Positions 7,639 to 63,766 are shown, counted from the first letter of the stretch. The stretch: DNA of 64,000 bases from a bacterium (GCA_965240465.1 OZ251219.1:96001-160000); one strand, 5' to 3'. Notes: generated by a model not told the origin, from the letters alone. Numbers and translations are program-made.

Positions 7639-9012
7639 TTGAGTGATATGTCAGCAGGGATGCAGATTCAAGACATCAAAGAACATAGTGTACATGCCCC
7701 TTTGATTAAGGTGGTAGGAATTGGAGGCGGAGGTGGCAATGCCGTCAATCGCATGATGGAAGCTGGCCTTGATTCAGTTGATTTCGTAGTAGGTAACACT
7801 GATCTACAAGATCTAAATGCTTCTCATGCTCCATATAAGATACAGTTTGGTCCAAAATGTACTCGGGGGTTGGGTGCAGGTTCAAAACCGAATTTGGGTC
7901 GCGAGGCGGCGGTGGAAGATTTGAATAGCATTAAGGAATGTTTAAGAGGGGCTGATATGGTGTTCATCACTGCCGGTTTGGGGGGAGGCACGGGTTCTGG
8001 AGCGACACCGGTAGTAGCTGAAGTAGCTAGTGAGCTTAATTGTCTCACTGTATGTGTGGTGACAAAGCCATTTCGTTTTGAAGGGGCTGCTCGTTGTCGT
8101 AATGCGGAGGAAAGCATTGTCCAAATTAGAAAGCACGTGGACACTTTGATTGTAATTCCCAATGATAATCTCTTGGGTCTTTCGGGTAAAGAGACTTCTA
8201 TTTTAGAGGCTTTCAGCATGGCAGATGATGTTTTGCGGGTGGCTATCCAGGGCATTTCTGACCTTATTACAAAAGATGCCCTCATCAATTTAGATTTTGC
8301 GGATGTTCGTACTGTAATGGGTGGAATGGGGCAAGCGATTATGGGTATTGGAGTAGGAGAAGGAGAAAATAGGGCTCTGGAAGCCGCAGAAAAAGCCATC
8401 CACAGCCCCTTGCTGGATGATTGCCGCATTGATGGAGCAAAGGGAATTTTGATTAATGTCTCGGGTTCCGCCAGTCTAGGCATACTGGAAGCAAATGAAG
8501 CAGTGAGCTACATCACCGAATTAGCAGATAAAGATGCCAATGTGATTTTTGGGGCCAACATTAAGCCTGATATGCCTGAAGAGAAACTGGAAGTGACCGT
8601 AATTGCCACAGGATTTGATAGTACCAAAGATCAGAAAACGGGAACTGCTGAAGCGGGGCCTGTTTATTATCTAGGGACAGATAAAAACAGCAGATCGGAA
8701 AGATTAGAAAATGTGGAAGATCATCATTCTCACCTGGGCGAATTGAAGTCTGTGCCAGACAGCTTAGCTGAAGAGCATTTGGCCTTCGTTGACAAGGAGA
8801 ATGTCAGTGAAATTCTTGAAGCGGATAAAGATGCTACGGCAAGTGTGTCTGATATTGCTTGCCAAGCAGAGGATAAAGGTGCCGCTGAAGCTCCACTGGA
8901 AACTGAGCCCAGCATTCCTTCTAGTTATCAAAACGATGACAACCAAAACTTGTATGCAAATAATCTGGATGTTCCTGCTTTTATCCGCCGTCGCAACCAC
9001 CGTGTACGGTAG
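7639..9012 (+). CDS. ftsZ: Cell division protein FtsZ with long acidic linker
   Basis: GGGGGNAVNRM, GGGTGSG tubulin signature, INLDFAD, C-terminal LDVPAFIRR peptide. The start may be the ATG at 7648. Confidence 0.99.
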   Translation: MSDMSAGMQIQDIKEHSVHAPLIKVVGIGGGGGNAVNRMMEAGLDSVDFVVGNTDLQDLNASHAPYKIQFGPKCTRGLGAGSKPNLGREAAVEDLNSIKECLRGADMVFITAGLGGGTGSGATPVVAEVASELNCLTVCVVTKPFRFEGAARCRNAEESIVQIRKHVDTLIVIPNDNLLGLSGKETSILEAFSMADDVLRVAIQGISDLITKDALINLDFADVRTVMGGMGQAIMGIGVGEGENRALEAAEKAIHSPLLDDCRIDGAKGILINVSGSASLGILEANEAVSYITELADKDANVIFGANIKPDMPEEKLEVTVIATGFDSTKDQKTGTAEAGPVYYLGTDKNSRSERLENVEDHHSHLGELKSVPDSLAEEHLAFVDKENVSEILEADKDATASVSDIACQAEDKGAAEAPLETEPSIPSSYQNDDNQNLYANNLDVPAFIRRRNHRVR

Positions 9013-9162
9013 AATCAAGTTAATTAGAAAATAGCTTGATAAGCTAAAAAAGAAATGAACCAAAAAATAGTTAATAAGTATAGCAGTTTTGTAGATAGGT
9101 ATTTTGCCTAGACTAGGATATTTTTGATGAAGGTGAATGAAAACCATGTTTTCATCCGCTGA

Positions 9163-10164
9163 ATGCTAGTGAAGTATCCTGTAAATGGAAAGATAAAAAT
9201 TATGATTATGTCTTGGCACCTGCGTTTGTGTTTGAGGTTGGGGTTAAGGTTGGGCATATGGGGAATTTTGCTGAGCGTGTTTGCTGTAATGTTGTGGCAG
9301 CTGCTGTGGATATGGCTGGCAGTTCCGTTGGTAGGGGGGACGCTATTGGTTGGTTTATGGGAGGCATGGCGGTTGATGCATCAGCATGGGAGTGGTAGGT
9401 TGAAGGGGTGGGTGTATGGAGCATTTAAGGGAGCGGCAATGAGTGGGCTGGCGTTTTATGCTTCGTTTTTGATGTCGCGACCAGAGTGGTTCTGGCCTTT
9501 GCTGTTGGCATTGGTTGCTGGGAGTTGTGGAGGGTATCGAAAATATCGGCTGAGCGGGTTAAAACATTATTTGCTTAGCTGGGGTCTGGGTGTTGTAGTT
9601 GGTGGAGCGTGGGCTTGGGTATTACTGAGCTTGTTACCATGGTTGGTATTTGTATTAGGGTTGTGGAGTGTGGGATGGCTATGGTGGTGGATTTTGTTAC
9701 CCAAGCTATTAGCTCGTAGCTGGGTGCGAGTACTAAATGGACCCTTAGAGGACATGTGTTATCCGCTGCGGGGCGAGCTAATAAAGATTGGTGCGGATGC
9801 AGATAACCACGTGGTGTTGGAGAATTACGCTAGAGTTTACCCTTTTCATGGCTGTGTATCTAGTTCTAAAGGATGCTATAGGCTGATAGGTGACCAACAG
9901 AGGAGCGAAGTATTGGTTAATTATCGTCAGTTTGCACAGCATAAATTAGAGAGTGGAGATTTACTTAAGTTGGGTGACGCACTGCTTCAAGTGGGAGGCA
10001 AGCTACCAACAGAAGATTCTGTCCCGGCAAGACAGAAAAATCGGGGGAGATATGGAAGGAACAGAAGTTCCCGTTATAGAGGTAGGCACAGCAGGGGACA
10101 AGATGCTGCTAGAGAGTACGGCAGAGGACGTCGGACACAAGGGTTTAGAAGCAGTAATAAGTAA
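9163..10164 (+). CDS. Multi-pass membrane protein with C-terminal degenerate FHA-like domain and Arg-rich tail
   Basis: About six hydrophobic segments, then IKIGADADNHVVL...HG.V...VLVN......KLESGDLLKLGDALL (FHA beta-sandwich pattern). Confidence 0.65.
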   Translation: MLVKYPVNGKIKIMIMSWHLRLCLRLGLRLGIWGILLSVFAVMLWQLLWIWLAVPLVGGTLLVGLWEAWRLMHQHGSGRLKGWVYGAFKGAAMSGLAFYASFLMSRPEWFWPLLLALVAGSCGGYRKYRLSGLKHYLLSWGLGVVVGGAWAWVLLSLLPWLVFVLGLWSVGWLWWWILLPKLLARSWVRVLNGPLEDMCYPLRGELIKIGADADNHVVLENYARVYPFHGCVSSSKGCYRLIGDQQRSEVLVNYRQFAQHKLESGDLLKLGDALLQVGGKLPTEDSVPARQKNRGRYGRNRSSRYRGRHSRGQDAAREYGRGRRTQGFRSSNK

Positions 10165-10209
10165 ATTGCTGAGGTCAGTTATGACACCTTTTTTATATTA
10201 AGTTAGGTT

Positions 10210-11259
10210 TTGGTGATGAATGTTTTGTTAATAAGAATAATAAATATAGCTGCATATTTGAAGATTATTAATTGGAGGATTACAGGGATATTTGCAGTAA
10301 CAATGTTGCTCCCTAAGCAGGTGATGGCAACAGACAGTTTTAGTGCATCAATTTCAATGGAAGTAGTCATAATACTCCTATCTTTGCTGGGGCTTGTTAT
10401 ATGCTGGATATGCTTTCGGCAAGGATGGAACATAAAAAATATGCAAAGTCCTGGGTTGGAGGTTATTTCTCCTACTGAGAAGCGTCATTTTTTGTCGCTT
10501 CCGCAATTACCATGTAACTTGGAATTTATTTCCCAGCGGTTGAAATATTCGCAACTGCGTATTTCTGGGGGCTTAAATCGGGTACTGATGAAGAAGGACC
10601 CACGGGGAAATGTGATGTTGGAAGACAAAAACAATCGCAGTGTTATGTTGCACAATCGCCGTCGACTGGAACACATAAAATTGCTGATATATGATGTGCT
10701 GGATTTTGGTGAAATTACTCTAATGTATCGTGATTCCAATCTTGAAGCACATTCTAAGGAGGCATCAAGCCTGATATCAAAATTTATGGCAATGCTCAGA
10801 TCAAAGTCTACTGTGTACAAGGCTCCCAACCAATGGTCTGTCAGTAAAAAGTCTATCGCAGAGCCAACAGCTACAGGAATATCTTTTTGTCAACCGTTGA
10901 TGCCTATGCCAAAGCAAGCACCTTCGTTTATTTCTACGAGGAATCGAGAACAAGTATTCTTCATTACCAAAAATGTGGTGTTTATTGGTAGCTCTTCTAT
11001 CAACGATTTAGTATTGAAATCCCCAGATGTAGCTCTCAAGCATGCCAAACTGGAGCGTGTCAGTGACCGTTACAAGTTGGTACAACTGAGCCCTCGTGCT
11101 CACATTACCATCAACAGACGACGGGTGGAGCAAGGATATCTTAGGGCCGGAGACGAAGTGTATTTTGAAGGAACAGGCTTTATTTTTCGCTCCGAAACCA
11201 GTACTCAGGATCCAAAAGAAAAAAATACAAGTGATAAAGGCCATGTTCTAGCATCGTAG
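10210..11259 (+). CDS. Membrane-anchored protein with two FHA-like domains
   Basis: TM segment VVIILLSLLGLVICWICF; FIGSSSINDLVL....VALKHAKL...INRRRV....LRAGDEVYF; a weaker FHA-like unit ending HNRRR...LLIYDVLDFGEITLMY. Start uncertain. Confidence 0.7.
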   Translation: MVMNVLLIRIINIAAYLKIINWRITGIFAVTMLLPKQVMATDSFSASISMEVVIILLSLLGLVICWICFRQGWNIKNMQSPGLEVISPTEKRHFLSLPQLPCNLEFISQRLKYSQLRISGGLNRVLMKKDPRGNVMLEDKNNRSVMLHNRRRLEHIKLLIYDVLDFGEITLMYRDSNLEAHSKEASSLISKFMAMLRSKSTVYKAPNQWSVSKKSIAEPTATGISFCQPLMPMPKQAPSFISTRNREQVFFITKNVVFIGSSSINDLVLKSPDVALKHAKLERVSDRYKLVQLSPRAHITINRRRVEQGYLRAGDEVYFEGTGFIFRSETSTQDPKEKNTSDKGHVLAS

Positions 11260-12258: not shown

Positions 12259-14364
12259 CTAACCAAAGAATACCTGAAACAACCCCTCTCCAAAACTATG
12301 AGCAAAAACCAGACTAACAATGGCCTGTAGCTTTATAAGGATATTCAAAGAAGGTCCGGAGGTATCTTTGAGTGGATCACCAACTGTATCTCCAATGACA
12401 GCAGCCGCATGAGCATCGGATCCTTTGCCACCCAAATGTCCTTGCTCAATTAATTTTTTAGCATTGTCCCACGCACCACCCGCATTAACTGATGAGGTAG
12501 CTAGTACCACCCCTGAGGCAAGGCTACCTATCAACAAACCTGCCAGAGGCTCCACTCCAAATAAAAAACCTACCGCCAGAGGAACCAGCAATACTTGGAT
12601 GGCAGGGACAATCATATTTCTTAAGGCTGATTTAGTGGCTATATCCACGCAACGGCGGTAGTTGGGAAGAACGGTGGAAGTTTCTTCTTCTTCCCCATCA
12701 TCATCTTCTTCTGTTGATACATTTTTAAGACCAGGGATGGTAGCAAACTGGCGGCGTGATTCGTTAATAAGTTCTTTGGCAGTACGTCCTACAGCTCTGA
12801 GCATCATGGAAGTAAAGGAGAATGGTAGCATGGCACCGATCACCAGCAGGGAAATGACGCTTGGTTTTAGAATATCAAGGGTATCAATACCTGAGCGTAC
12901 CAAGAAGGCAAATATCAGTGCTAAAGAAGTCAGTGCGGCAGATCCGATGGCAAATCCTTTACCTACCGCGGCAGTGGTATTACCCGCGGCATCAAGGGCA
13001 TCGGTGCGGCGGCGTACGACACTGTCCATGCTCGCCATTTGAGCAATGCCTCCAGCATTATCCGCAACGGGACCAAAAGCATCAATGGTGAGGGTCATGA
13101 TAATTGCCCCCAGCATGCCGATAGCCGACAGTGCTATTCCGTACATTCCTGCCGCAGAAAAACCTATGAAAACTGTGATACCCAACAGGATCACGGGAAT
13201 TACGCTACTACGATGACCGAGTGCCATACCAATCACGATGTTTGTAGCGGCACCAGTACGGGAAGCAGAAGCTATTTCACGAACCGGACGTTTGTGGGAG
13301 GAGGTGTAAAATTCAGTTACGATGCCAATCAGCAAACCTGATAACAATCCGCTTAGCACCGATAAATAAACTCCCATTCGTGAGATATTTTTCACCCCTA
13401 TGACAAATTCTTCTGGCAAAGAAAAAAGAGTTACTATCAAAGTCACAAAGGCCATCAAGACAGTTGAGGCAAACAAAGAGAATTTCAAGGCAGATTCTGC
13501 TCTGCGTGCTGTGTTAGCACGTACAAAAAAAGCAACTACCAAGGCCACGGGCACCCCAAAAGCAGTGAGAGTAATGGGGTAAAGCAGTGCTAATTCGGTA
13601 GAAAAAATGGTAGCTCCAATTACTAAGGCAGCACAGGTGCTCTCTGTGATAGAACCAAATAAATCGGCACCCATGCCAGCTACATCACCTACGTTATCAC
13701 CCACATTATCTGCAATTACAGCGGGATTGCGAGGATCATCTTCAGGGATGTTCTGTTCAATTTTGCCTACTAAATCGGCACTCATATCGGCAGCTTTGGT
13801 AAAAATCCCTCCGCCTACACGGGCAAACAACGCTATGCTGGAGCCTCCTAAAGCAAATCCTGCTATAGCTTCCATCAAGTGCCTAGTATCTTTGATGAAT
13901 GGTTTATATAAAAGGTACATGATTATCAGGCCCAGCAGGGCAATGCCCACCAGACCAAAACCCATTACTGCACCAGATTGGAATGCTCTACGAAAAGCTA
14001 ATCTCAGCGAACGCCTAGCAGCAACAGCAGTCCGAATATTGCCCTCGGTAGCAGCTCGCATACCCAACCATCCCGCCCCAATAGAGCAAAATGCCCCTAC
14101 AGCAAATGAAAATGCAGAGCCAAAATCTACCACCAGAAACACTAGTAAGCCAAACCCTATGATAAATACCAGCATGTGACGAAATTCTCGTTTTAGAAAT
14201 GCTTGTGATCCTAAAGAAATGGCTCCAGAAATTTGAACCATTCGTTCTGCCTGAGATTTGGGGATGCCTTTGGTTGGATCTTGCTTTATGACCTGCCTCA
14301 GAAAAACAAAGGCCGTCAGCAGTGACAATAATCCCAAGATAACAATAGTTGTTTCAACAGACAT
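12259..14364 (-). CDS. hppA: Membrane-integral ion-translocating pyrophosphatase (K+-dependent type)
   Basis: [61 protein letters not shown]. Confidence 0.97.
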
Positions 14365-14605
14365 GGAGTTTCCTTTTGGTTAGTAAGATAATAATAAAAA
14401 TCGCTGGACAAAAATACTCATATTTTGAAAATATTAAAAAGCCGTAGATATAGCCAGCTACGAGAATCATGCCATGAAAAATTATACGGCTTATGCGGAA
14501 AAAATAAAAACATTTTTTGAAAATCAACTTAACTTGGATATTATATGGGCAATAGTGTTTAGTGTCTAGTTTCTTTTTCGGTGACTTTCTAATATTTAGT
14601 GAGTA

Positions 14606-19253: not shown

Positions 19254-19255
19254 CT

Positions 19256-19900
19256 TTAAGCAACACGAGCTTTAGGCTTGGTAAGGGTAGAGGTGTGCTT
19301 ATCTGTTGTCAAGCTTGAGAGTGGCTTTCTAAAAAATAGATTGTCAAAGCCATGACGCCCCAGGGTGTCTAGGACAGCTACTGCGGTTTTGATAGAGTCT
19401 CGGTTGACCAAAGGCACGCTTAAATGAGCTTGTTGATATTGGGGCTGACGTTCTTCAAACAAGCAGGTGATATAATCCCGCCATTCTTCATTGGTCTGTT
19501 GTTTGTTGTTAATCAGGGGACGGTGGCTGTTGCGTTTTAAGCGAGTAAAAAGGGTGTTGAGGTCTGCTTCCAAATATACGACTGTTCCTGCTTTCCGCAG
19601 TATCTCCATTCCGCATGGGTTGATGGGCATGCCACCACCAGTAGCTACCACATGTTTTTCAAGATACAGAAAACGATTCATCATTTTAAGTTCTATTTTA
19701 CGGAAAAATGCTTCTCCATGAGTAAGGAATATATCGGCTATGGACATGTTGAGGGTGTCCTCGATCAGTTGGTCTGTGTCTATAAAGTGATATTTAAGCT
19801 GGCGGGATATATATTTTCCCACAGTGCTTTTCCCTGAAGTCATAAATCCAGTTATCAAGATATTACTGGATTTCGTATTAATGTAGCTCAACTGTGTCAT
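19256..19900 (-). CDS. aroK: Shikimate kinase
   Basis: GFMTSGKSTVG Walker A, DTD, GEAFFR, ATGGG, RPL. Confidence 0.93.
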   Translation of the reverse strand: MTQLSYINTKSSNILITGFMTSGKSTVGKYISRQLKYHFIDTDQLIEDTLNMSIADIFLTHGEAFFRKIELKMMNRFLYLEKHVVATGGGMPINPCGMEILRKAGTVVYLEADLNTLFTRLKRNSHRPLINNKQQTNEEWRDYITCLFEERQPQYQQAHLSVPLVNRDSIKTAVAVLDTLGRHGFDNLFFRKPLSSLTTDKHTSTLTKPKARVA

Positions 19901-21096
19901 GGTGCACTATGTAGCATCGAAGATTGTGAGTGTCTGGGATGAGTATTTTTATTGCTTAGTAATGGTGGATGCCCGGTGGTTTGGTAAGGAGACTCAATCC
20001 ATCCGCCCCCCAGCAAGTGATGGCGATCATAGAATACTACTGCTTGTCCTGGAGTGATAGCCCTGACTGGATCATGGAAGCGTACTTTTACTCGGCTGTG
20101 AGGTTGAGGAATAACAAGTGCTGGTTGCGGTTTGTGAGAATAACGTACCTTGGCTTCCACGGTAAAAGGATATCTAGGAGGTTCACAAGAAACCCAATTT
20201 ACTCGTTTAACGGATAAGCTTTTTGAGAACAAGGCTTCTTCTGCTCCCAGTACTACTTCTTGGGTATGTGGTTTAATATCTACCACAAACATGGGACCGT
20301 TGCTATTTATTCCCAGGTGCCGTCTTTGTCCGATAGTGAAATAGGCAATGCCAGGGTGCATGCCAAGGAATGACCCTTCCATGTCCACAAGAGCACCAGG
20401 CATGCTGGGGAGCGATTCTTTTTTGAGGAAACTACGATAATCTTTTGAGATGAAACATATTTCTTGGCTTTCAGGCTTGTCCCATGTTTTAATTTTAAGG
20501 CGGTGAGCGATGTCTCTTACCGTGGACTTACTAATTTCTGCCAGGGGGAAGAGCAGCCAAGGTAGCTCTTTCCTTAGGGTAGTGAAGAGGAAATAAGTTT
20601 GGTCCTTATGGGTATCGTAGGGACGAGAGAGTTTCCAACCGCTGGATATATGTTCCAGACGGGCATAATGCCCAGTAGCCAGGTAAGAACATCCGAATTG
20701 ACGAGCCTGAGATAATAGCAACCCGTGTTTGATGGAGTCATTGCACATCACGCAAGGATTGGGAGTCAACCCATGTTGATAATCACTAATAAAATTATCA
20801 ATTACTTGCTCACGGAAAGATTTTATATGGTTAACAACATAAAATGGGATTCCCAGCTGGGAACAGACTCTGCGAGCATCCAGGGAGTCATCCACAGAAC
20901 AGCATTTTTTGTTGCTCTTTTCAGATTCTGGAATGTCGTGCAATTTCATGTGAATGCCGATTACATCCCAGCCTTGTTCCACCAACAAGGCTGCCGCCAC
21001 CGAAGAATCCACTCCTCCACTCATGGCTACCGCCACACGTCCTGAGGATTTATCAATATCGGTAGCAGGAGAAACAACCATGGTTTTCAGTAACAC
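19897..21096 (-). CDS. mnmA: tRNA 2-thiouridylase MnmA
   Basis: AMSGGVDSS, TPNPCVMCN, ATGHYA, KDQTYFL, ESQEICF, TPGQ. Confidence 0.97.
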   Translation of the reverse strand: MLLKTMVVSPATDIDKSSGRVAVAMSGGVDSSVAAALLVEQGWDVIGIHMKLHDIPESEKSNKKCCSVDDSLDARRVCSQLGIPFYVVNHIKSFREQVIDNFISDYQHGLTPNPCVMCNDSIKHGLLLSQARQFGCSYLATGHYARLEHISSGWKLSRPYDTHKDQTYFLFTTLRKELPWLLFPLAEISKSTVRDIAHRLKIKTWDKPESQEICFISKDYRSFLKKESLPSMPGALVDMEGSFLGMHPGIAYFTIGQRRHLGINSNGPMFVVDIKPHTQEVVLGAEEALFSKSLSVKRVNWVSCEPPRYPFTVEAKVRYSHKPQPALVIPQPHSRVKVRFHDPVRAITPGQAVVFYDRHHLLGGGWIESPYQTTGHPPLLSNKNTHPRHSQSSMLHSAP

Positions 21097-21142
21097 AAAA
21101 TTAGTAATGCAAGATTGAAAATATAATAAAAACCAACCAGCA

Positions 21143-22225
21143 TTACAATGAATTTAGCAAAACACTCTCATAAATTTGTATATTTGATCTTTTTCTGAGT
21201 TTTGTCAGCCATTTTTGATAGCTTTGTGTTTGTCGTGCAAGCACCATGATTCTACGAATTTGAGGCCGCGATTGGGCATAGGTCAACAAGCGTGCGGGGT
21301 GTTTTTTTTCCAATCGGAATAGATGAAAACCCATCTGGGTACGCACCGGTTGTCCTCCAGGATTTGTTTCTCCAATATTTTTTAGAGAAAACACCATTCC
21401 ATCAAATTCAACCGGCAACACCCCTCTTTCTACCAAACCTAAATCTCCACCCAAATTGCGATCAGGAGTAGTGGAGTACTTGCGTGCCAATTGGGCAAAA
21501 TCGGATCCTAAATGCAACTGCCGTAGCACATTATCATACAATCTTTTTGTCCCCACGGCGATATGCCTTGCTTGGCGCATTTCCGATTGGCGAAACCCAT
21601 GTAGATTACGTTGATAATACAAGCGCATTTCTTTCTCAGAAATAGGAATATTATTAAGTACTTCTTGATTAACCAGCTTTTCATGTAGCAACCGCTTGCG
21701 GACATGCTCTCTCCAGCTACGTTGCATTTCTATAGGTACAAAATTAGACGGCTGAACACCATATTCACCACCCAAGAGTTTTTTTAACATTTCATCCAGA
21801 TCCACGTCTGTAATATGCAATCCCCTACTACGAGCCTCCTGACTCAGAAGTCTATCATCAATCAGCTTATTTAATATCAACTTCGCTAATGTTTGCTTTT
21901 CTTCCTTATTACTAGTCAGCAAATGTTCCCAATGCGTAGAAGAATATTGATATGCTTTTTCATACTCTCCAAAATAAATAGACTCGTTGTTAACCGTGGC
22001 CACTAACTTACTGGTGGAAGAACTTAATTTCTGCTTTCCATAACGTGGCTTGCTGACTCCCACCCATACCACCAACAAAAGAAACATCCCAATCGTTAAA
22101 AACAGAAGTCTAAGTCTACGCCGTGGCCAGCCTTTACTTTGCTTACTTGTGCCAAGAATCAGTCTAGATGATTTAGCTTCCTTTTCTATCAGCTTATTTT
22201 TCATCTCATTCTTTTTCATAGTCAT
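21143..22225 (-). CDS. Parvulin-type peptidyl-prolyl isomerase (SurA/PrsA-like), membrane-anchored
   Basis: N-terminal TM; VATVN; ARHI...FAQLARKYS...GGDLG...F....F...RTQMGFH rotamase motifs. Confidence 0.88.
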   Translation of the reverse strand: MTMKKNEMKNKLIEKEAKSSRLILGTSKQSKGWPRRRLRLLFLTIGMFLLLVVWVGVSKPRYGKQKLSSSTSKLVATVNNESIYFGEYEKAYQYSSTHWEHLLTSNKEEKQTLAKLILNKLIDDRLLSQEARSRGLHITDVDLDEMLKKLLGGEYGVQPSNFVPIEMQRSWREHVRKRLLHEKLVNQEVLNNIPISEKEMRLYYQRNLHGFRQSEMRQARHIAVGTKRLYDNVLRQLHLGSDFAQLARKYSTTPDRNLGGDLGLVERGVLPVEFDGMVFSLKNIGETNPGGQPVRTQMGFHLFRLEKKHPARLLTYAQSRPQIRRIMVLARQTQSYQKWLTKLRKRSNIQIYESVLLNSL

Positions 22226-22650: not shown

Positions 22651-23268
22651 TCAGGCTTTGGTCTTATTCCAGCGTATTTTTAATTCCTGGTCGTAGCCAG
22701 GGTGAGTAGCACAAAGCAGAGTGTGTGCGTACAACTGTATATTTTTGGATTTCATCATTTTGAAAGCCGTCTCAATATTGTGATCAAAGAGTGGTTCTGG
22801 AGAAGGAAGGGTAGCCTGTTGATGAGCCGAGTGAACAAATTCCAAGTAAATATTAAAATCTGTAGCTGGCATGTCAAGACTTTGGGAAACTGAACGAAGT
22901 AAATCAATTTCCTCATCAGCTAACACGCCGTCAGCCATCGCCATTCCCATCAGATCTAACATTAGACTAACTGTCAGACCCGAATCGCTCATTCTTTTTT
23001 CAATCTTGTCGCGATTTCCAAGTTCTTCTTGCTGAGCAATATCCATAATTTTTTTGCCTTGGGATTCATCCAGTTCAAAGTCTTTTATCCAGCGTTTTAG
23101 CAGGCTATTCTCCTTAGGGTCCAAGGTTCCGTCGCTACTGGCAATGCTTGCCACCAGCATTAGATATTCTTTCCTAGTATCAACAGGGAGATCCGACATA
23201 TTAGGCATGCCAGAAAAAACATTCAATTTTATTCGTCTACGATGTTTTTGTTTATCGAGCCAGTCCAT
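22651..23268 (-). CDS. TerB-like domain protein
   Basis: Two TerB motifs, IASSDGTLDPKE and MAMADGVLADEE. Confidence 0.75.
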   Translation of the reverse strand: MDWLDKQKHRRRIKLNVFSGMPNMSDLPVDTRKEYLMLVASIASSDGTLDPKENSLLKRWIKDFELDESQGKKIMDIAQQEELGNRDKIEKRMSDSGLTVSLMLDLMGMAMADGVLADEEIDLLRSVSQSLDMPATDFNIYLEFVHSAHQQATLPSPEPLFDHNIETAFKMMKSKNIQLYAHTLLCATHPGYDQELKIRWNKTKA

Positions 23269-24391
23269 AACTAATCACTCTGACTTTATGTTGAAAATAT
23301 AGTTGAAGCACAAGGTTACCGGCGAGTAGAGCAAAATAATCTGCTTTTTTCAAGGACAATCTTACCCAATGGTATCTATATTGTCCAGCGTTTTGCTTGG
23401 CTTGATAGCGACCAAAATCTACTACTGCCATCCGCTGGTCCCCCCCAATGTATAGGAAGCGAGGCAAAAAGTCACTATATTTTGTATTTACTGGGCGGGC
23501 AGAGTTTGAGCTAAGAATTAAGGAATAGCTGGAGTTGGCAGTGGGTTGGTAAGTAGAGAATTTGGTATTGGCATCTTTAATAGCTTGTCTGTGTTGAATT
23601 ATAGAAGGAAACTGTTTGTCCACGGTACCGAATTTTCCGCTAAGATCGGCTACTGTGGGAGCACCGTAATCAGCCAATTTTAGGCTAATCGTATTCGCCG
23701 CTTTGGAAGAAAGAGATTTTTGTTCATTACTGGGGGTGGAGTAGAATACATTATTTAATGGAGTTTGGGTAAGGTAGACGACAACTGAATTTAGAGAATA
23801 GAGGCTTAGCTGTTCTGGAGGGATCTTATACAGTAAATCTTCTACAAAAAATATTCCTGTCGATGGGCTAAGGATGGCCTCTATGGTTCTTCCTGGAATT
23901 GGAGTATTGATTTTTACGATTAGTTGTACGGTGTCAGAGTTATTGAGTGATTTACGGAAGTTTTTTGTAAGTTCAATGTCTATTTGTCCAGCTATCAGTA
24001 TTTTTGTCCATTTATTTAATTCTTGGCGAGCTTCTACGAGGTCAGGTTTTTGTAGCAAGGTATATTCAAGCCGAGCGTAAGCTTTATGCAGTTTTTCTTG
24101 AGTAAGATAACGAAGGTAAGCCTTAAAGTTCTCAGGAGCAGCTTTTTGATTTACCCGTACCAATGATTCCTTAAAACGACTATTACGCGGTTTTCTTGCT
24201 ACCGCGTGCTGATAGGCAACAGAAGCCTCCTCAAAGCGTTGTTCTTTTTCCAGCTTTAATCCTTCGCGATAATGCTCCGCACAACCGGAGATTAATAAGG
24301 ACCAGGCAAATAAATACAGCCCCTGTTTCCTAAACCGTAGTTTATGATAGCTAGTCTGTAGCAGGAAAAAGCGGATAATTAGGAGCTTCAT
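23252..24391 (-). CDS. Hypothetical TPR-containing lipoprotein
   Basis: Lipobox LISG-C then TPR-like helices (YREG..LE...RFEEA...YQHAV...P); start uncertain, overlaps the guaB 3' end. Confidence 0.65.
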   Translation of the reverse strand: MKLLIIRFFLLQTSYHKLRFRKQGLYLFAWSLLISGCAEHYREGLKLEKEQRFEEASVAYQHAVARKPRNSRFKESLVRVNQKAAPENFKAYLRYLTQEKLHKAYARLEYTLLQKPDLVEARQELNKWTKILIAGQIDIELTKNFRKSLNNSDTVQLIVKINTPIPGRTIEAILSPSTGIFFVEDLLYKIPPEQLSLYSLNSVVVYLTQTPLNNVFYSTPSNEQKSLSSKAANTISLKLADYGAPTVADLSGKFGTVDKQFPSIIQHRQAIKDANTKFSTYQPTANSSYSLILSSNSARPVNTKYSDFLPRFLYIGGDQRMAVVDFGRYQAKQNAGQYRYHWVRLSLKKADYFALLAGNLVLQLYFQHKVRVISYGLAR

Positions 24392-25868: not shown

Positions 25869-26165
25869 ATGCTAGACTGGAGCCTTAAAATAACAGGTTG
25901 AGGAAAGCGAATGAAATATCATGGATTAGAAAGTAGTTGTAAAAATGCAGGCACACAAAATATCGTGCTTCAAACAACCATCAAACACGAAATGAACATA
26001 AATAGTCCTCAATATACACCTATAAGTACCACCCCTGATTGTATTATACCCACTATTCATAATGCAACTTATGGTGCTCATGATAGTTTGTAGGATGATA
26101 TTTTGGGAGTAAATTTGGTGAAACAGGAGTTCAGAGTCAGGAAGGAAAAATTATTACAGGAGGAC

Positions 26166-35252: not shown

Positions 35253-35386
35253 TACTTACTTTTTATGGGAAGAAGACAAAGTTTTAAAAAACTTTCCTGT
35301 GTATTCTAGTATTGCTAACTAGTACTCATTCAAGCATTACTTCTCTGCTGGTTAAATTTTGCTATCCCGAACAAGCAAGTAATGCT

Positions 35387-37698: not shown

Positions 37699-37738
37699 AC
37701 TAAGAAACTATGTGAAAAACGGAAAATAGTAGAAATTT

Positions 37739-48443: not shown

Positions 48444-48700
48444 AAACCTACGCTCACAGATACAATGTAAACAGGAAACCAACGTCCTCCATCAATTTAC
48501 ATAAATTGGGAGCGTCCCTAAATTTCAGCCAATTTGCAAGCTATATTTAATCAAAGTACTTATAAAATATTATGCAGGATAAGATTTTGTTTTCCATTTC
48601 TTGTTAGAGTGAGTATCAGAAATATGACACTTATCAATTGAAAACTTACTAAATTGGCATCAACGATTGTGTAACCAAATTATAATGAGGACATACAGGA

Positions 48701-51254: not shown

Positions 51255-51469
51255 AGTACTTTCTACTTGAAATAAGGAAAATAACGGGCAATTCTTGTTT
51301 AAAATCTTACTTTAACTGTCGCTGAGTATCAATTCTACGGCCTCATCATAAATGACTAACGAACATCATAGCATAACAAAAGGTATTTAGGTTAATAAAT
51401 AGAAAATATTTTCTAATATTTTAAGATACTGTAATCAATGTTGTTGGTGTGTATATATAGGTATTTAGT

Positions 51470-56107: not shown

Positions 56108-56149
56108 GACAGATCCCTTTCTTCGTTTAGTAGCTTTATCATAAGTTTT

Positions 56150-57927: not shown

Positions 57928-57954
57928 TCTTAAACTACAACAAATGTCGTCACT

Positions 57955-59280: not shown

Positions 59281-59316
59281 TTCCTACCTACAGGATTAAG
59301 CACTCCCTGCTGTGGG

Positions 59317-61167
59317 TTAGGTTATCTTGCTACAGAGTTTTTGCAGTTGCTGATGTCTGGTGTGTGAAATCTGGAAATCGGTTTTGATCTCAATCATTTC
59401 AATGCCCTTGTTCCGAGTCGTTTCAACGATGATGCGAGAAAGTTCCGCTAGGCTTGTTGGTTGATAATAGTCAATATCATGGGCTTGGGCTAGTTTTTGA
59501 AATTGAGTGTGGTGTGGGGCTAGAAATAATGATTTAAACTGGGGATGGTGCTTAATAGGCAGAGTATAAAAAATACCACCACCATTGTTATTTATGAGAA
59601 TAATTTTAAGGGGGATTTTTGTTTGTTGATTCATGCAGAGTACATTACTGTCATGGAGAAGTGCTGTATCACCGATGAGTAAGAAGGAAGACTTAGCATT
59701 ATGTTTTGCTGCTCCAAGAGCGGTGGAGATAGTGCCATCAATGCCATTGGTGCCTCTATTGGATAGGTGTGTAATGGGAGGAGCATTTTGAGGCCAGTAT
59801 TGTGAGAGGTATCTAAGGCAAAGACTGCTGGCAGTAAAAATAAGGGAGTGTTGAGGTATCAGGGACGCAAGCTGGATGATTAATTGACCTTCAAACCAGC
59901 TGTGTTGGGGAGGTTGGGGCAGATAAGAATTTTGCTGGAGATTTTGGTTGATGATTTGCTGAATATCCTGTTTAGCAGAAGAGAAAATAGAGAGCCACTG
60001 GGGATCTCTATGAGATTTATTGATGGAGTTAATGGACTGGAGGAGTTGTTTGATAGTAAGAGTTGGCTCCGCGTGCAGATGTTGAGAGTGAGGATGATGA
60101 TGATGATCGTTCCAGCGACCTTGGGGATCTATTATTGTTTGAGGTGTATCTGGCTGTGACAGTAGGCTATCTAGTTCAGCGTCCACGGGCATAGCCCCAA
60201 AGCGAAGGATATATTGTGGGGGCATAGCCTGTTGTACAGCTTTGGTTTGAAGTGTAGCACTGGGGTGTGGAATAAGGTTGGGATGGGTACCATTTTGCCA
60301 AATACCGCTTGAAGGTTCTGCAAAAATTGGCCATCCCAGCTGGTAAGCCAGCGAGGTAATGCTCTGTGCAAATGATTTGAGGGGAAAGGTAGTATCCAGG
60401 GTGGAGATAGGAGAATGAGGACCACCAACTATTATGCCTCTGGGGATATTGGATATAGTTTCCGCAAGGGATGAGAAAACTTTAAACGATAGTTTAGGGA
60501 TGGCTGGATTAGCAGAAACTTGCAGTGGGACGGAATAATCTTGTTGTAACAGTTGAGCAGCTATTTTTATTACCGAGGACGGTAATTTTTCAGCAGTCGT
60601 TGATGGTTCAAGTGGTTTTGGGAAAGGGAAGTTGATGTGAACAGGCCCTTGCGGAATACAAAGAGCTTTTTTAAGAAGTTTGGGTGCAAGACTAAATAGA
60701 GCAAGCAATGCTGAGGCAGTCATGCGAGGCTCACCTGGGTTAACGTGCCAGTGGTCGTAAGAGGCAAACATGCCATCTTGATGGGTGGTTTGATTAGCTC
60801 CACAGTGATGCAGTTGTGGTGGTCTGTCGGCTGAAATTACAATGAGAGGAATACAAGAGTTATGAGCTTCAACGATCGCAGGTAAGAAATTGGCAGGTGC
60901 TGTTCCGGACGTACAGAGTACTGCTACTGGTTTGTGGCTACTTTTTGCTATTCCCATGGCAAAGAATGCCGCAGAGCGTTCATCAATTATAAGATGAGTC
61001 CTTAAGCTAGTGTGAGCCGCACATGCCAAGGATATTGGTGCTGAACGAGAACCTGGACTAATACAAATATCGCGTATACCCGAAAGGCTTAGGGCATGAA
61101 CAAATATAGATGCCCATAAAGTATTGGCGTTGGCTAAATAATCGTGGTCACGAAAGGCGGTGAACAT
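59317..61167 (-). CDS. menD: SEPHCHC synthase
   Basis: SPGSRSAP, DERSAAFFA, TSGTA, ADRP, NRGTNGIDG, GD...NNNGG. Confidence 0.96.
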   Translation of the reverse strand: MFTAFRDHDYLANANTLWASIFVHALSLSGIRDICISPGSRSAPISLACAAHTSLRTHLIIDERSAAFFAMGIAKSSHKPVAVLCTSGTAPANFLPAIVEAHNSCIPLIVISADRPPQLHHCGANQTTHQDGMFASYDHWHVNPGEPRMTASALLALFSLAPKLLKKALCIPQGPVHINFPFPKPLEPSTTAEKLPSSVIKIAAQLLQQDYSVPLQVSANPAIPKLSFKVFSSLAETISNIPRGIIVGGPHSPISTLDTTFPLKSFAQSITSLAYQLGWPIFAEPSSGIWQNGTHPNLIPHPSATLQTKAVQQAMPPQYILRFGAMPVDAELDSLLSQPDTPQTIIDPQGRWNDHHHHPHSQHLHAEPTLTIKQLLQSINSINKSHRDPQWLSIFSSAKQDIQQIINQNLQQNSYLPQPPQHSWFEGQLIIQLASLIPQHSLIFTASSLCLRYLSQYWPQNAPPITHLSNRGTNGIDGTISTALGAAKHNAKSSFLLIGDTALLHDSNVLCMNQQTKIPLKIILINNNGGGIFYTLPIKHHPQFKSLFLAPHHTQFQKLAQAHDIDYYQPTSLAELSRIIVETTRNKGIEMIEIKTDFQISHTRHQQLQKLCSKIT

Positions 61168-61223
61168 GTAAAGAAGAGGTTTTTGGAGTGAAAATTTTTT
61201 GGATAAATTGTCAATAAATATGG

Positions 61224-62672
61224 TTATAGGGAAGGATTTATAGCTGATATCATGGGTTGGAGTTTCAATTGTAGCTCATGCCACTCATCCTGAGGTTTGG
61301 AGGCTTCCAAGATGCCTGCTCCTACAAATAAGTAGGCTTGATTAGGTCTCAGTAACCCGCAACGCAGGGCAACCGCAAACTCACCATGCCGAGGACCTTG
61401 TAGCCATCCAATCGGAGAAGCAAACCAACCCCGCTCAAATTGCTCTAATTCTGCAATGGCTTGTAATGCCTGTTCACGAGGATATCCTCCCACTGCAGGG
61501 GTGGGATGCAATTTGCCGAGTAAAGTCAATGGAGATATGTCACCACGTGGAAAAAAAACAATCGGGGTGTGCAAATGCTGAACATTAGCAAGTTGCATCA
61601 AGCAAGGCTCGGTAGAAAAACTAACCTCACCATAAGAAGATAACAAACCGGTTATTTCATCCACTACCACACGGTGCTCTTCCCTATCTTTAGCACTGTG
61701 GAAAAGACGTTGGGCGTACTGATTGTCATCAGCAGGATCACTACCTCTGGAGGCTGTTCCTGCCAGAGCACTCAAGCATGCTTTGTTTCCCTCAAAAGAA
61801 ATCAACCTCTCAGGTGAAGCCCCTACAAATATTCCATTCCCAGACTCAGCCCCAGTCTTAGACTCGGGCACAATGCAAAAACAATAGCAGTCTGGGTACT
61901 GCTTTCGTAATCGGGCACTAACTTGATAGGCATCCGTGCACACGGAATAGTACATTACTTGTGTCAAGACTGCCTTATGTAAATCGCTTGATGCCATCTT
62001 ATGCTGCAAGGCTTTTACCATCATATTCCAAGCATGCGATTGTTTCTCTTTACTCAATGCTTCCAGTTCACCAGTATTTTTCCACTCCACCTGAGACACT
62101 TCACTCTGGAACACAGAACTGAGCATTCTTAAACCCTCTTCCAGCCGGTTATGTACGACATTTGATTCATCCATGGTTTCTACCCAAGACTGCACCATGC
62201 CCCACAACTTGTTACCACGACGCACCAAAGCTACTTTTGGTAAAATCATCCGAGCTACTCCAAACTCAGACCATAAATCATCTGTAACCTCAGAGAAAAA
62301 AGAAAATCCACCCACTAGTAACGGATACTCCACTGCCCCCTGAAAACCAGAACCGCATACTGCTTCTTGCTGTAATCTCTCAACCTGAGTTGCCAATTTC
62401 TCAAAACGCTCATCCCCTTTAGAGCTCAACACATGGCTACTTCCGCCTGTAGCTAAGCCCTCGTTCACACTTGGGTGTTCCCAGTAAAAAGAATTTCCCT
62501 CTAAATCTTGCAAAATCCGAGCACAATTTAATATATCAACCCCTTGAAATTGCGATAGATCTATCATCTGTACTACAGCACAACCCCTTCCTAATCTAAC
62601 TGCCTGTGCTAACCCTCGTTCACATAATCCGCCTAGATCAGGAACACGAATTTGTACCATATCACACCACAC
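61224..62672 (-). CDS. menF: Isochorismate synthase
   Basis: GASPERL, ALAGT, KDREEH.VV, NVQHL.T, LHPTPAVGG, GEFAVALR, GAGI; co-oriented upstream of menD. Confidence 0.92.
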   Translation of the reverse strand: MWCDMVQIRVPDLGGLCERGLAQAVRLGRGCAVVQMIDLSQFQGVDILNCARILQDLEGNSFYWEHPSVNEGLATGGSSHVLSSKGDERFEKLATQVERLQQEAVCGSGFQGAVEYPLLVGGFSFFSEVTDDLWSEFGVARMILPKVALVRRGNKLWGMVQSWVETMDESNVVHNRLEEGLRMLSSVFQSEVSQVEWKNTGELEALSKEKQSHAWNMMVKALQHKMASSDLHKAVLTQVMYYSVCTDAYQVSARLRKQYPDCYCFCIVPESKTGAESGNGIFVGASPERLISFEGNKACLSALAGTASRGSDPADDNQYAQRLFHSAKDREEHRVVVDEITGLLSSYGEVSFSTEPCLMQLANVQHLHTPIVFFPRGDISPLTLLGKLHPTPAVGGYPREQALQAIAELEQFERGWFASPIGWLQGPRHGEFAVALRCGLLRPNQAYLFVGAGILEASKPQDEWHELQLKLQPMISAINPSL

Positions 62673-62962
62673 CTAGAGCTAAACTCTCTAACTAACCTAC
62701 CCATTAACTTGTAATACATACTGCCTAATCACTATTATCATTAGTCAGTTAACCACGAATTTATTCATATCGTCTCATTAATTTTTAGCAAAACCCCGAT
62801 TACAAAACCATCATGCCTCTATTAAATATGAGAATCTCATTCTGTTACAAACACCCCTCGCTGTAAAAGGCATGATAAACTACTTCTTGTTAGCATTCTA
62901 ATAAGATTTGATAAAACCAACCCAGCACTACAATAACCACCACCACCCAACCCCCGCCCGCT

Positions 62963-63766
62963 ATGAATACTGCTTATAAAGATATTTACTACCAAGTCCA
63001 AGCAGGAGTATCTACAGTGACCATCAATCGCCCAGAAGTGCTCAATGCCTTCCGTCCTCAAACGGTGGATGAAATACTGGAAGCATTCCAACAAGCATGG
63101 GATGATGAATCAGTCGGAGTGGTAGTGCTGACAGGAGCTGGTGGTAATTTCTGCAGTGGTGGAGATCAAAAACTTCGCGGGGACAGCGGCTATTTAGATA
63201 AATCTCAGAACCGCAACCGACTCCAAGTTCGTCATCTTCATAGAATGATAAGAGATATTCCCAAGCCTGTAATTGCGATGGTTGATGGCTGGTGCGTCGG
63301 GGGTGGTCATGTGTTGCATATTCTATGCGACTTAACTATTGCTTCTGAGCGTGCGAAGTTTGGTCAAACTGGTCCCAAAGTAGGAAGCTTTGATGCTGGA
63401 TTTGGCACCATACAATTGGCACGCATTGTAGGAGAAAAAAAAGCCCGCGAAATATGGTTTCTCTGTGAATCCTACAACGCTGAAGAAGCACTCTTGATGG
63501 GGCTAGTCAATAAAGTTGTACCCCTTGAAGAATTGACTTCCACCACCAAGCAATGGTGCGAAAAAATATTGTCTCGCAGTCCAACCGCATTAAGGTTTTT
63601 GAAAGCATCCTTCAATGCCGATACCGATCATGTCTATGGTCTGCAAAACATAGCCCACGGAGCGGTGCACTTATTTTACGGTAGCGAAGAAAGTAAAGAA
63701 GGGCGCCAAGCTTGGAAAGAAAAACGAACTCCTGATTTTTCATCATTTAGAAGAATGCCTTGGTAA
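62963..63766 (+). CDS. menB: 1,4-dihydroxy-2-naphthoyl-CoA synthase
   Basis: [41 protein letters not shown]. Confidence 0.98.

What the first reader, a model, noticed from the sequence alone, without database searches (positions are those of the whole stretch)
8900..63200. Saw-tooth G/C strand skew that resets at gene boundaries irrespective of gene orientation
Seen, from hand counts of selected 60-nt lines on the + strand: 8941 G9/C17 then 9241 G24/C5 (boundary between two + genes); 35041 G7/C18 then 35641 G19/C6, decaying to 37381 G6/C21 (all - genes); 58981 G5/C21 then 60001 G20/C3, decaying to 62581 G6/C23 (convergent boundary). Similar C-to-G jumps are visible by eye near 6.2, 14.5, 19.25, 26.0, 30.25 and 43.1 kb. 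So sense strands start G/T-rich and end C/A-rich, and protein composition follows (Gly/Val/Trp-rich N-termini; Pro/Gln/His/Thr-rich C-termini, e.g. MenD). Known: a single-origin chromosome normally keeps one skew sign per replichore, and a C-to-G jump is the signature of an origin. Inference: a strand-asymmetric mutational process radiating from many intergenic sites, such as dispersed or R-loop-primed replication, or repair and resection tracts. The lines were chosen by eye, so this needs an unbiased test.
Basis: partly seen in the sequence, partly recalled or inferred. Interest (0 to 1): 0.7.

Follow-up and report, generated by a model that had tools for sequence, protein, structure and literature searches.

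The report
Gene-anchored G-to-C skew sawtooth
In this small-genome spirochaete and its sister species most genes run from G-rich to C-rich along their coding strand, even at silent codon positions; this is a strong, lineage-specific strand bias of unknown cause and not a sign of many replication origins.

Summary
All eight hand-counted lines are exact. The pattern holds across the whole 1.6-Mb genome. At fourfold-degenerate sites the sense-strand G-C skew falls from -0.06 to -0.33 across gene deciles, while A and T stay flat. The 5' half exceeds the 3' half in 486 of 678 genes of 900 nt or more. Sharp C-to-G jumps outnumber G-to-C jumps 38 to 10, and they sit at gene edges. The sister species G001 shows the same pattern. 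Two genomes of the same family (G008, G009) are flat, and E. coli shows a weak opposite trend.

The many-origins reading is not supported. dnaA lies at the single minimum of cumulative skew. The gradient is the same in both replichores and in leading- and lagging-strand genes.

The pattern is a gene-anchored bias in which G:C pairs are kept or lost according to their orientation. Its cause is open. I favour transcription-linked damage or repair asymmetry, with Rho-related selection on transcripts as the main rival. The closest published analogue is the intragenic skew gradient of yeasts, which has the opposite sign. Earlier notes of this scan describe similar sawteeth on other DNA.

The parts
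6066..6372 (.). C-to-G jump (about 6241; -0.07 to +0.38) in the divergent gap before ftsA
9013..9162 (.). C-to-G jump (about 9091; +0.13 to +0.53) between ftsZ and the next + gene
9163..11259 (+). Two-gene run. Plus-strand skew falls from +0.51 to -0.07; fourfold skew falls from +0.90 to -0.12. The first gene keeps its skew in the G001 ortholog (0.91/0.71/0.23 against 0.78/0.56/0.13) at 46% protein identity.
14300..14605 (.). C-to-G jump (about 14351; -0.17 to +0.29) at the divergent boundary between the pyrophosphatase gene and the 14606 gene
19256..22225 (-). Run of three minus-strand genes with one continuous decline. Plus-strand fourfold skew goes from +0.31 to -0.45, so the sense strand is G-rich at the 5' end and C-rich at the 3' end. 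Jumps at about 19111 and 22301 bound the run.
23252..25868 (-). Two genes with jumps at about 23451 and 25551 and a downward step at about 24121
26103..29726 (+). mfd. Fourfold skew falls to -0.77 at the 3' end. The gene is inverted in G001 and the gradient follows the gene.
35253..35386 (.). C-to-G jump (about 35261; -0.27 to +0.31) between two minus-strand genes
35387..37342 (-). selB. Plus-strand skew goes from +0.40 to -0.24 across the gene. The G001 ortholog has the same polarity.
37560..37760 (.). C-to-G jump (about 37661)
48483..48700 (.). C-to-G jump (about 48561) in a divergent gap
51270..51469 (.). C-to-G jump (about 51371)
59281..59550 (.). C-to-G jump (about 59451; -0.13 to +0.44) at the convergent boundary next to the 3' end of menD
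59317..62672 (-). menF-menD unit. The sense strand runs from +0.48 (5' end of menF) to about -0.41 (menD). MenD protein is visibly rich in Q, H, P and T.
62900..63100 (.). C-to-G jump (about 63001; -0.45 to +0.10) at a divergent boundary

Best explanation
Shown: a substitution bias anchored to genes and specific to this genus acts on G:C base pairs according to their orientation. Near a gene's start the coding strand keeps G and loses C. Towards its end it keeps C and loses G. A and T are untouched. Read on one strand, this gives a sawtooth that resets at gene boundaries, most fully at transcription-unit boundaries. It sits on top of an ordinary single-origin replication skew.

Inferred: the cause is mutational and linked to transcription. 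Damage or repair at G:C pairs is strand-asymmetric. The non-template strand would be the more exposed one near the 5' end. The template strand would be relatively more affected towards the 3' end, through antisense or read-through transcription or through a change in transcription-coupled repair along the gene. A shift of only about +-15% in the relative loss rates of sense G against sense C reproduces the compositions.
For: Nucleotide-level, not codon-level:
- All 8 fourfold families decline: -0.13 to -0.37 in G000, -0.15 to -0.27 in G001, and -0.06 to +0.13 in the control G008.
- All four following-base contexts decline.
- In most twofold purine-ending families G/(A+G) falls by about 0.1 (-0.08 to -0.13 in CAR, AAR, GAR and AGR; about 0 in TTR), and in pyrimidine-ending families C/(C+T) changes by -0.03 to +0.10.
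- First and second codon positions and amino-acid use move the same way but more weakly.
- The flip happens within about 40-80 nt after the stop codon.

Persistent and locus-bound: orthologs in G000 and G001 average 63% protein identity, yet fourfold skew correlates at r = 0.69 per gene and r = 0.36-0.43 for the 5'-minus-3' gradient, with a permutation sd of 0.05. T-A skew correlates at only r = 0.08.

Independent of replication direction, of protein conservation tercile and of neighbour type.

Lineage-specific: present in G000 and G001, absent in G008, G009 and E. coli.

The same genus also has a much stronger replication-strand asymmetry with the same G/C-only signature. Leading against lagging genes have C 0.240 against 0.299, G 0.204 against 0.159, and A 0.239 against 0.243. 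The plus/minus strand difference in the 400-kb samples of G008 and G009 is only 0.03-0.05. This argues for a general change in strand-asymmetric mutation, not for selection on transcripts.

A rate-matrix model in which all exits from G are scaled by k and all exits from C by 1/k (k = 0.86 at the 5' end, 1.16 at the 3' end) fits both end compositions with an rms error of 0.001.
Against: - No mutation spectrum resolved by position could be obtained. One search printed 40 of 852 differing places.
- A 'field' (fixation-bias or selection) model fits the compositions exactly as well, also with an rms error of 0.001.
- Simple known asymmetries fail. Pure C-to-T deamination asymmetry predicts a T-A skew change of -0.24 and pure 8-oxoG asymmetry predicts +0.27, against +0.01 observed. 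Direct G-C transversions are only 15 of 841 differences to the related strain X3.
- The change of sign needs two opposed influences, and nothing here shows antisense transcription.
- Genes followed tightly by another gene are shifted towards G. Their 3' third is at -0.18 against about -0.30 in G000, and -0.12 against about -0.25 in G001. A Rho-polarity selection model also predicts this.
- None of the repair or transcription genes checked tracks the trait.
- The dependence on gene length differs between the two species.
Confidence: 0.45

Rival explanations
1. Selection on the transcript's C-versus-G content through the terminator Rho. Rho loads on exposed RNA that is C-rich and G-poor. The 5' parts of transcription units are kept G-rich to avoid premature termination. 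C-rich tails are tolerated or used for termination in a compact genome that has few hairpin terminators.
For: The variable that changes is exactly C against G, with A and T untouched. The product of G and C frequencies stays constant, as expected for a selective field on C-minus-G.

Dierksheide et al. 2026 (PMC13323073; abstract and sections 7 and 8 read) show that stretches over 150 nt with C excess over G trigger Rho termination, and that Rho avoidance shapes coding-strand composition and codon use.

rho is present. Terminator-like hairpins are not enriched in window 5501-25500: 16 found against 17.3 expected.

Genes followed tightly by another gene are G-shifted, with less C-rich 3' ends, in both species. 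Windows of 150 nt with sense (C-G)/(C+G) of 0.35 or more rise from 2.5% to 8.6% along genes.
Against: - The decline starts at the very beginning of genes and runs their whole length; it is not a C-rich patch at the end.
- Only 22% of genes of at least 900 nt have a strongly C-rich window in their last 450 nt.
- The C-rich zone ends at the stop codon and is not in the untranslated tail.
- rho is equally present in relatives without the pattern.
- This model does not explain why replication-strand asymmetry of the same G/C-only kind rose in the same genus.
- It needs selection at thousands of sites in reduced genomes.
- The paper does not mention any positional gradient: 0 occurrences of 'gradient' or 'along the gene'.
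Confidence: 0.25
2. Many dispersed sites of DNA synthesis at gene boundaries (extra origins, R-loop-primed replication or long repair tracts), with random termination in between, as in the skew 'N-domains' of mammalian chromosomes.
For: The shape matches that of N-domains (recalled from the literature, not read here): sharp upward jumps at boundaries with a gradual, roughly linear decline between them. The G/C-only signature equals that of this genome's replication strands.
Against: - There is one dnaA, at the single minimum of cumulative skew, and a clear two-replichore pattern.
- The local gradient is additive to replication direction and independent of it.
- Reset strength depends on operon structure: fourfold-site reset is 0.06-0.09 at junctions under 20 nt and 0.17-0.26 at wider gaps.
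- The gradient follows an inverted gene, mfd.
- RNase HI is present.
- About 400 initiation sites per 1.6 Mb have no precedent. This last point rests on my own knowledge.
Confidence: 0.06
3. Codon-usage (translational) selection or amino-acid composition that changes along genes.
For: Some genes clearly carry a strong codon preference of their own. cfpA and the GLUG-motif giant genes have fourfold G-C skew of -0.5 to -0.95 together with T-A skew of +0.3 to +0.6. E. coli shows a weak positional trend, +0.04 to +0.16.
Against: - All 8 fourfold families and all base contexts shift alike.
- A- and T-ending codons do not shift.
- The amplitude is the same in slowly and fast evolving genes.
- Non-coding DNA after stop codons joins the next gene's regime.
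- The pattern is absent in larger-genome relatives.
- The genes with the strongest codon bias show no gradient or a reversed one.
Confidence: 0.03
4. A mosaic left by recent inversions or foreign DNA in a genome with strong replication skew.
For: Gene-to-gene variance in skew is large: the sd of fourfold skew is 0.33.
Against: A mosaic predicts blocks with as many downward as upward steps, and no polarity within genes. Observed are 38 upward against 10 downward steps, and 486 of 678 genes with the same polarity. The landscape is conserved in a syntenic sister species at 63% protein identity.
Confidence: 0.02

Closest known systems
[quoted passage not shown]
   Same: The skew gradient is oriented with the gene and changes sign within it. 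It is seen at fourfold sites, extends beyond the coding region and affects amino-acid use. AT skew is flat, which argues against simple C-to-T deamination. It is species-specific in strength. Its cause is open, with mutational and adaptive readings both proposed.
   Different: The polarity is reversed: fungi are C-rich at the 5' end and G-rich at the 3' end, whereas here it is G-rich then C-rich. Those are eukaryotes with RNA polymerase II. Here it is a bacterium with operons, partial carry-over across tightly joined genes, and an added replication skew.
Skew N-domains of mammalian chromosomes
   Same: Sawtooth shape: sharp upward jumps with a gradual decline between them.
   Different: The scale is about a megabase against 1-4 kb here. 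Jumps there are replication initiation zones. Here they are gene boundaries in a genome with one dnaA-linked origin.
Coding-strand purine bias from Rho avoidance under runaway transcription (Dierksheide et al. 2026, PMC13323073; abstract and sections 7 and 8 read)
   Same: C excess over G on the transcript is the key variable. The bias is tied to the direction of transcription and not to replication, and it reaches codon use.
   Different: That bias is uniform along genes and involves A and T as well. No positional gradient is described. Here only G and C change, and the sign reverses within genes.
Replication GC skew of bacterial chromosomes (established knowledge)
   Same: Strand asymmetry at synonymous sites. 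In this genome it has the same G/C-only signature.
   Different: It has one sign per replichore and flips only at the origin and terminus. The feature here flips about once per gene or operon and ignores replichore.

Membership tests
Replication origin (skew jump at oriC) | The jump coincides with dnaA or DnaA-dependent initiation and with the global minimum of cumulative skew | tested here: not met
   The only dnaA match is at genome position 605,074-606,393, at the single global minimum. The window (96-160 kb) holds 13 local jumps and no dnaA.
Replication origin (skew jump at oriC) | The skew sign stays constant over a whole replichore on either side | tested here: not met
   The sign reverses again within 1-4 kb. 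The gradient is identical in both replichores.
Mammalian-type skew N-domains | Sharp upward jumps with a gradual decline between them | tested here: met
   Step skewness is +0.37 (null sd 0.029). There are 38 upward and 10 downward jumps of 0.6 or more.
Mammalian-type skew N-domains | The jumps are replication initiation zones | not testable with these tools
   No marker-frequency or replication-timing data are available. Indirect evidence is against it.
Fungal intragenic GC-skew gradient (McLean and Tirosh 2011) | A monotonic change of coding-strand GC skew from gene start to gene end, also at fourfold sites | tested here: met
   Skew falls from -0.06 to -0.33 over deciles. The difference between first and last fifth is 0.242 against a shuffled value of 0.0006 +- 0.0105.
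Fungal intragenic GC-skew gradient (McLean and Tirosh 2011) | AT skew is uniform along genes | tested here: met
   Fourfold T-A skew is +0.10 to +0.14 in all deciles.
Fungal intragenic GC-skew gradient (McLean and Tirosh 2011) | Polarity: C-biased at the 5' end, G-biased at the 3' end | tested here: not met
   The polarity is the reverse in G000 and G001. The E. coli sample has the fungal polarity weakly, +0.04 to +0.16.
Rho-avoidance purine bias (Dierksheide et al. 2026) | rho is present in the genome | tested here: met
   Match of 690 bits, over the cut-off, at genome position 1,302,776-1,304,017. rho is also present in G001, G008, G009 and G004.
Rho-avoidance purine bias (Dierksheide et al. 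2026) | A uniform excess of purines (A and G) on the coding strand | tested here: not met
   At fourfold sites the purine share is 0.46 at gene starts and 0.39 at gene ends. A does not take part.
Rho-avoidance purine bias (Dierksheide et al. 2026) | RNA polymerase outruns ribosomes (runaway transcription), and C-rich stretches are terminated by Rho | not testable with these tools
   This needs transcript-end mapping with and without Rho inhibition.

The most novel reading that the evidence does not exclude
The skew landscape records RNA-polymerase polarity, as a transcriptional counterpart of replication N-domains. Sense transcription entering from the 5' boundary and antisense or read-through transcription entering from the 3' boundary each leave their non-template strand poorer in C. 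Rho ends C-rich RNA but not G-rich RNA, so each regime protects the transcripts that create it. The loop reinforces itself and divides every gene into a G-rich 5' domain and a C-rich 3' domain. That division then persists over long evolutionary times and even reshapes protein composition.
Probability: 0.12. Interest if true: 0.85.

Novelty: new variant of a known kind. Interest (0 to 1): 0.65.

Why it matters
If the cause is mutational, these genomes carry a natural, kilobase-resolution record of which DNA strand is at risk at each point of a gene. Such a record would be a handle on transcription-associated mutagenesis or repair in bacteria that cannot be grown.

If the cause is selective, it would extend the recent finding that Rho constrains coding-sequence composition to a positional code within genes.

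Either way the bias is strong enough to change protein composition; MenD and the FHA-domain-like membrane protein encoded at 9163-10164 are examples. It can mislead skew-based origin finding, codon-usage measures, detection of horizontal transfer and phylogenetic models.

Four literature searches (open-access PubMed Central and bioRxiv only) turned up no description of such a gradient in bacteria.

Tried and rejected
Search for close relatives. A scan of metagenome contigs with MenD found no relative, so no close genome was available for polarised substitutions there.

Sequencing runs. No RNA holder was listed. Contigs of four runs were laid on window 44001-64000. Run X3 is a relative about 4% diverged, with 841 differences. 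Only 40 of 852 differing places were printed, so no positional spectrum could be made. X4 and X5 covered the stretch only in small pieces.

Direct G-C transversions as the cause: rejected. They are 15 of 841 differences, and the model needs a 3.6-fold change and predicts a T-A shift.

Pure deamination asymmetry and pure 8-oxoG asymmetry: rejected because of the flat T-A skew.

Okazaki-fragment or head-on-collision models: rejected because both replichores and both gene orientations behave alike.

Candidate gene losses or gains. None tracks the trait:
- family-1 ung is absent in all 5 genomes searched;
- the recG model hits only mfd in all 5;
- mutY is missing in G000 but present in G001;
- rnhA, an RNase HII-like gene, a uracil-DNA glycosylase (Pfam family PF03167), rho, dnaA, topA, mutS, mutL and ogt are present in all 5;
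- uvrA and fpg are present in the genus;
- a Y-family polymerase is absent in the genus but also in G009, G006, G017 and G018.

Promoter and terminator scan of window 5501-25500: counts equal those of shuffles (42 against 41.9, and 16 against 17.3), so it gave no help in placing transcript ends.

Apparent lack of gradient in genes of 3 kb or more. This is explained by a paralogous family of GLUG-motif giant genes with their own extreme codon bias. Other long genes such as mutS and mfd show very strong gradients.

An earlier-notes look-up for this genome returned nothing on skew.

The script stopped with an error after printing the tables for a maximum gap of 20 nt. Only those tables were used.
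Full report
WHAT THE WINDOW IS

The window is positions 96,001-160,000 of a single-contig genome of 1,599,138 bases with 45.4% G+C. It carries ftsA, ftsZ, a membrane pyrophosphatase, gnd, mfd, gyrA, selB with a tRNA-Sec, menF and menD. It also carries cfpA, the cytoplasmic filament protein of treponemes. The organism is therefore a treponeme-like spirochaete with a small genome (marker completeness 83.6%). Its genus in the species-level collection holds one other genome, G001 (1.72 Mb, one contig). The other 17 genomes of its family are 2.3-5.2 Mb.

A 300-nt profile of the window shows repeated slow falls from about +0.4 to about -0.4 followed by abrupt rises.

With 600-nt flanks and a threshold of 0.35 the window has 13 upward and 3 downward steps. 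The sites near 30.25 and 43.1 kb do not reach the threshold.

For an unbiased test I called 1,206 non-overlapping ORFs of at least 100 codons, covering 89% of the genome. I then measured skew at fourfold-degenerate third positions.
- Sense-strand (G-C)/(G+C) falls monotonically from -0.06 to -0.33 over gene deciles, alike for plus- and minus-strand genes.
- C rises from 0.232 to 0.305 and G falls from 0.209 to 0.152. A (0.250 to 0.241), T (0.309 to 0.302) and G+C stay flat.
- The difference between first and last fifth is 0.242. Shuffling codons within genes gives 0.0006 +- 0.0105 (100 shuffles).
- The 5' half exceeds the 3' half in 486 of 678 genes of at least 900 nt (p = 3e-30), and in 23 of 26 such genes in the window.
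- The skewness of steps between adjacent 300-nt windows is +0.37 (permutation sd 0.029), which shows sharp rises and slow falls.
- Steps of 0.6 or more are 38 up against 10 down. At 0.5 or more, 69 of 79 upward steps lie in a gap or within 150 nt of a gene edge, where only 34% of the genome lies. By contrast, 28 of 44 downward steps lie deep in genes.

IT IS NOT ORDINARY

The sister species G001 (800 kb sampled) shows the same gradient, -0.02 to -0.25, and the same sawtooth asymmetry, +0.28. In G001, 248 of 355 genes have the same polarity.

The controls do not show it.
- G008 (3.0 Mb) and G009 (2.8 Mb), both of the same family with 400 kb sampled each, are flat: -0.17 to -0.20 and -0.05 to +0.02. 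Their asymmetry is zero, and G008 has no step of 0.5 or more.
- Four 50-kb stretches of E. coli K-12 (167 ORFs) show a weak trend of the opposite sign, +0.04 to +0.16, with local skew scatter close to the binomial expectation.
- Local skew scatter in 300-nt windows is 0.218 in G000, against 0.129, 0.105 and 0.096 in the three controls.

WHAT KIND OF FORCE IT IS

It acts on nucleotides, not on codons or proteins.
- All eight fourfold families decline in G000 and G001 and none does so consistently in G008. All four following-base contexts decline. In most twofold purine-ending families G/(A+G) falls by about 0.1 (none in TTR), and in pyrimidine-ending families C/(C+T) changes by -0.03 to +0.10.
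- First and second codon positions move the same way but less.
- Along proteins, P+Q+H+T rises from 15.6 to 18.4% and G+V+W+A+D+E falls from 35.5 to 32.0%. G001 does the same and the controls do not. Single genes can be extreme, as the MenD and MenF translations show.
- After a stop codon the skew turns positive within about 40-80 nt, even when the next gene is 200 nt or more away.

It is persistent and bound to the locus. G000 and G001 are syntenic but share only about 63% protein identity on average. Even so, fourfold skew correlates at r = 0.69 per gene and r = 0.36-0.43 for the 5'-minus-3' gradient (permutation sd 0.05), whereas T-A skew does not correlate (r = 0.08). The gene at 9163-10164 keeps 0.91/0.71/0.23 against 0.78/0.56/0.13 at 46% identity. 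mfd is inverted between the two genomes and its gradient follows the gene.

WHAT SETS THE UNITS

The within-gene drop is about the same whether the upstream neighbour is joined tightly (+0.26), is 100 nt or more away (+0.21) or is divergent (+0.30). It is also about the same for every kind of downstream neighbour. G001 repeats this.

There is also a carry-over across operons. Genes followed within 20 nt by another gene are shifted towards G: +0.10 to -0.18, against about -0.08 to -0.30 for other genes. The fourfold-site reset between the last and first 360 nt is 0.06-0.09 at junctions under 20 nt, against 0.17-0.26 at wider gaps. Some runs decline continuously across three genes, for example 19256-22225.

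Skew depends both on distance from the start and on distance to the stop. The slope is near -0.2 per kb in genes up to about 2-3 kb.

The apparent absence of a gradient in genes of 3 kb or more comes from a paralogous family of GLUG-motif giant genes. These have their own extreme preference for C- and T-ending codons. Other long genes have very strong gradients; mutS, for example, goes from +0.78 and +1.0 to -0.70.

The amplitude is the same in slowly and fast evolving genes.

REPLICATION

Cumulative skew has one minimum near 600 kb and one maximum near 1.55 Mb. The only dnaA match lies at 605,074-606,393.

Leading-strand genes run from +0.04 to -0.25 and lagging-strand genes from -0.17 to -0.41. 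That is a constant offset with the same slope. Both replichores have the same sawtooth sign.

The local sawtooth is therefore added to a normal single-origin skew and is independent of fork direction. This speaks against dispersed origins, against Okazaki-fragment models and against models based on head-on collisions.

rnhA, mutS, mutL, a uracil-DNA glycosylase (Pfam family PF03167), rho, topA and ogt are present here and in relatives without the pattern. The recG model finds only mfd in all five genomes. Family-1 ung is absent in all five. mutY is missing only in G000. A Y-family polymerase is absent in the genus but also in the flat control G009.

MUTATION OR SELECTION

A relative about 4% diverged (run X3) differs from window 44001-64000 at 841 places. 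Of these, 634 are transitions and only 15 are G-C transversions. The exchange of G for C at silent sites is therefore not made by direct G-C changes.

I built a rate matrix from these counts.
- Pure C-to-T deamination asymmetry that reproduces the G-C skew predicts a T-A skew change of -0.24.
- Pure 8-oxoG asymmetry predicts +0.27.
- The observed change is +0.01.
- Two models fit both end compositions with an rms error of 0.001. In one, all exits from sense G are scaled by k and all exits from sense C by 1/k (k = 0.86 to 1.16). In the other, a fixation 'field' favours G over C.

Composition alone therefore cannot separate an orientation-dependent mutability of G:C pairs from selection on C-minus-G.

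Two observations lean towards mutation. First, this genus also has a much stronger replication-strand asymmetry with the same G/C-only signature, while the samples of G008 and G009 have almost none. Second, the amplitude does not depend on how conserved a gene is.

Three observations lean towards Rho-linked selection. The variable is exactly the C-over-G excess that Dierksheide et al. 2026 show to trigger Rho termination. Operon-internal genes are G-shifted. Hairpin terminators are not enriched in the 20 kb scanned.

Against Rho-linked selection: the decline begins at the gene start. Only 22% of genes have a strongly C-rich window in the last 450 nt. The C-rich zone ends at the stop codon. That paper describes no positional gradient.

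COMPARISON WITH WHAT IS KNOWN

The nearest published phenomenon is the intragenic GC-skew gradient of unicellular fungi (McLean and Tirosh 2011). It shares the sense-oriented gradient, the fourfold sites, the flat AT skew, the amino-acid effects and the open cause. Its polarity is the opposite.

The shape recalls mammalian skew N-domains (recalled, not read here). The scale is wrong, and the link to origins does not fit here.

My four literature searches found no description of such a gradient in bacteria. They cover only open-access PubMed Central and bioRxiv.

Earlier notes of this scan describe similar gene-anchored sawteeth on other DNA: a giant-virus-like genome with the same polarity, a Planctomycetota lineage with the opposite polarity, a Bacteroidales giant gene and a large phage. 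Those are unchecked AI notes. One of them led me to the Rho paper.

VERDICT

I file it as a new variant of a known kind of feature, the gene-anchored skew gradient: bacterial, reversed in polarity, very strong and shared by a genus. The mechanism is unresolved.

Noticed in passing
window 22512-22606 (+) and 35387-37342 (-): A tRNA-Sec gene (67.5 bits) and selB lie 13 kb apart, so the organism probably makes selenoproteins.
   Followed up: no
window 15658-17508 (+); G000 genome 392,350-400,068: cfpA (877 bits) has further full-length or partial paralogs elsewhere in the genome. cfpA itself has a strong preference for C- and T-ending codons (fourfold G-C skew -0.49, T-A skew +0.50) and no gradient.
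   Followed up: partly
G000 genome 255,696-271,494 (outside the window): The RNase HI gene is followed by four tandem genes of about 2.7-5 kb; the one scanned has a CARDB domain. Fragments of the RNase H 3' end recur at about 261.3, 264.8, 267.9 and 271.4 kb between and after them. This looks like a tandem duplication that copied the end of rnhA each time.
   Followed up: partly
G000 genome 310-338, 691-714, 793-810, 886-905 and 1344-1355 kb (outside the window): About 20 genes of 2.7-7.9 kb lie in clusters. The four scanned are GLUG-motif proteins. Their fourfold G-C skew is -0.6 to -0.95 and T-A skew +0.3 to +0.6, with no gradient or a reversed one. Their codon regime differs from the rest of the genome.
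   Followed up: partly
G000 genome 562,883-568,477; G001 60,951-66,665: UvrA is encoded as two complete copies fused in one reading frame of about 1,870-1,960 residues, in both species of the genus.
   Followed up: no
G000, G001, G008, G009, G004 (whole genomes): The recG model matches only the mfd gene in all five genomes, and family-1 ung matches nothing in any of them. The whole family seems to lack both. mutY is missing in G000 alone.
   Followed up: partly
window 26103-29726 (+) against G001 420,365-424,031 (-): mfd is inverted between the two otherwise collinear genomes.
   Followed up: partly
L089-L092 (E. coli K-12, 4 x 50 kb): E. coli shows a weak 5'-to-3' rise of fourfold G-C skew (+0.04 to +0.16) and a negative sawtooth statistic (-0.25, sd 0.078). 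This is the fungal polarity in miniature.
   Followed up: partly
window 44001-64000: A public run from another study (X3) holds a relative about 4% diverged over the whole stretch. At sites where the two differ, G000 more often has the G (G>A 195 against A>G 144).
   Followed up: partly
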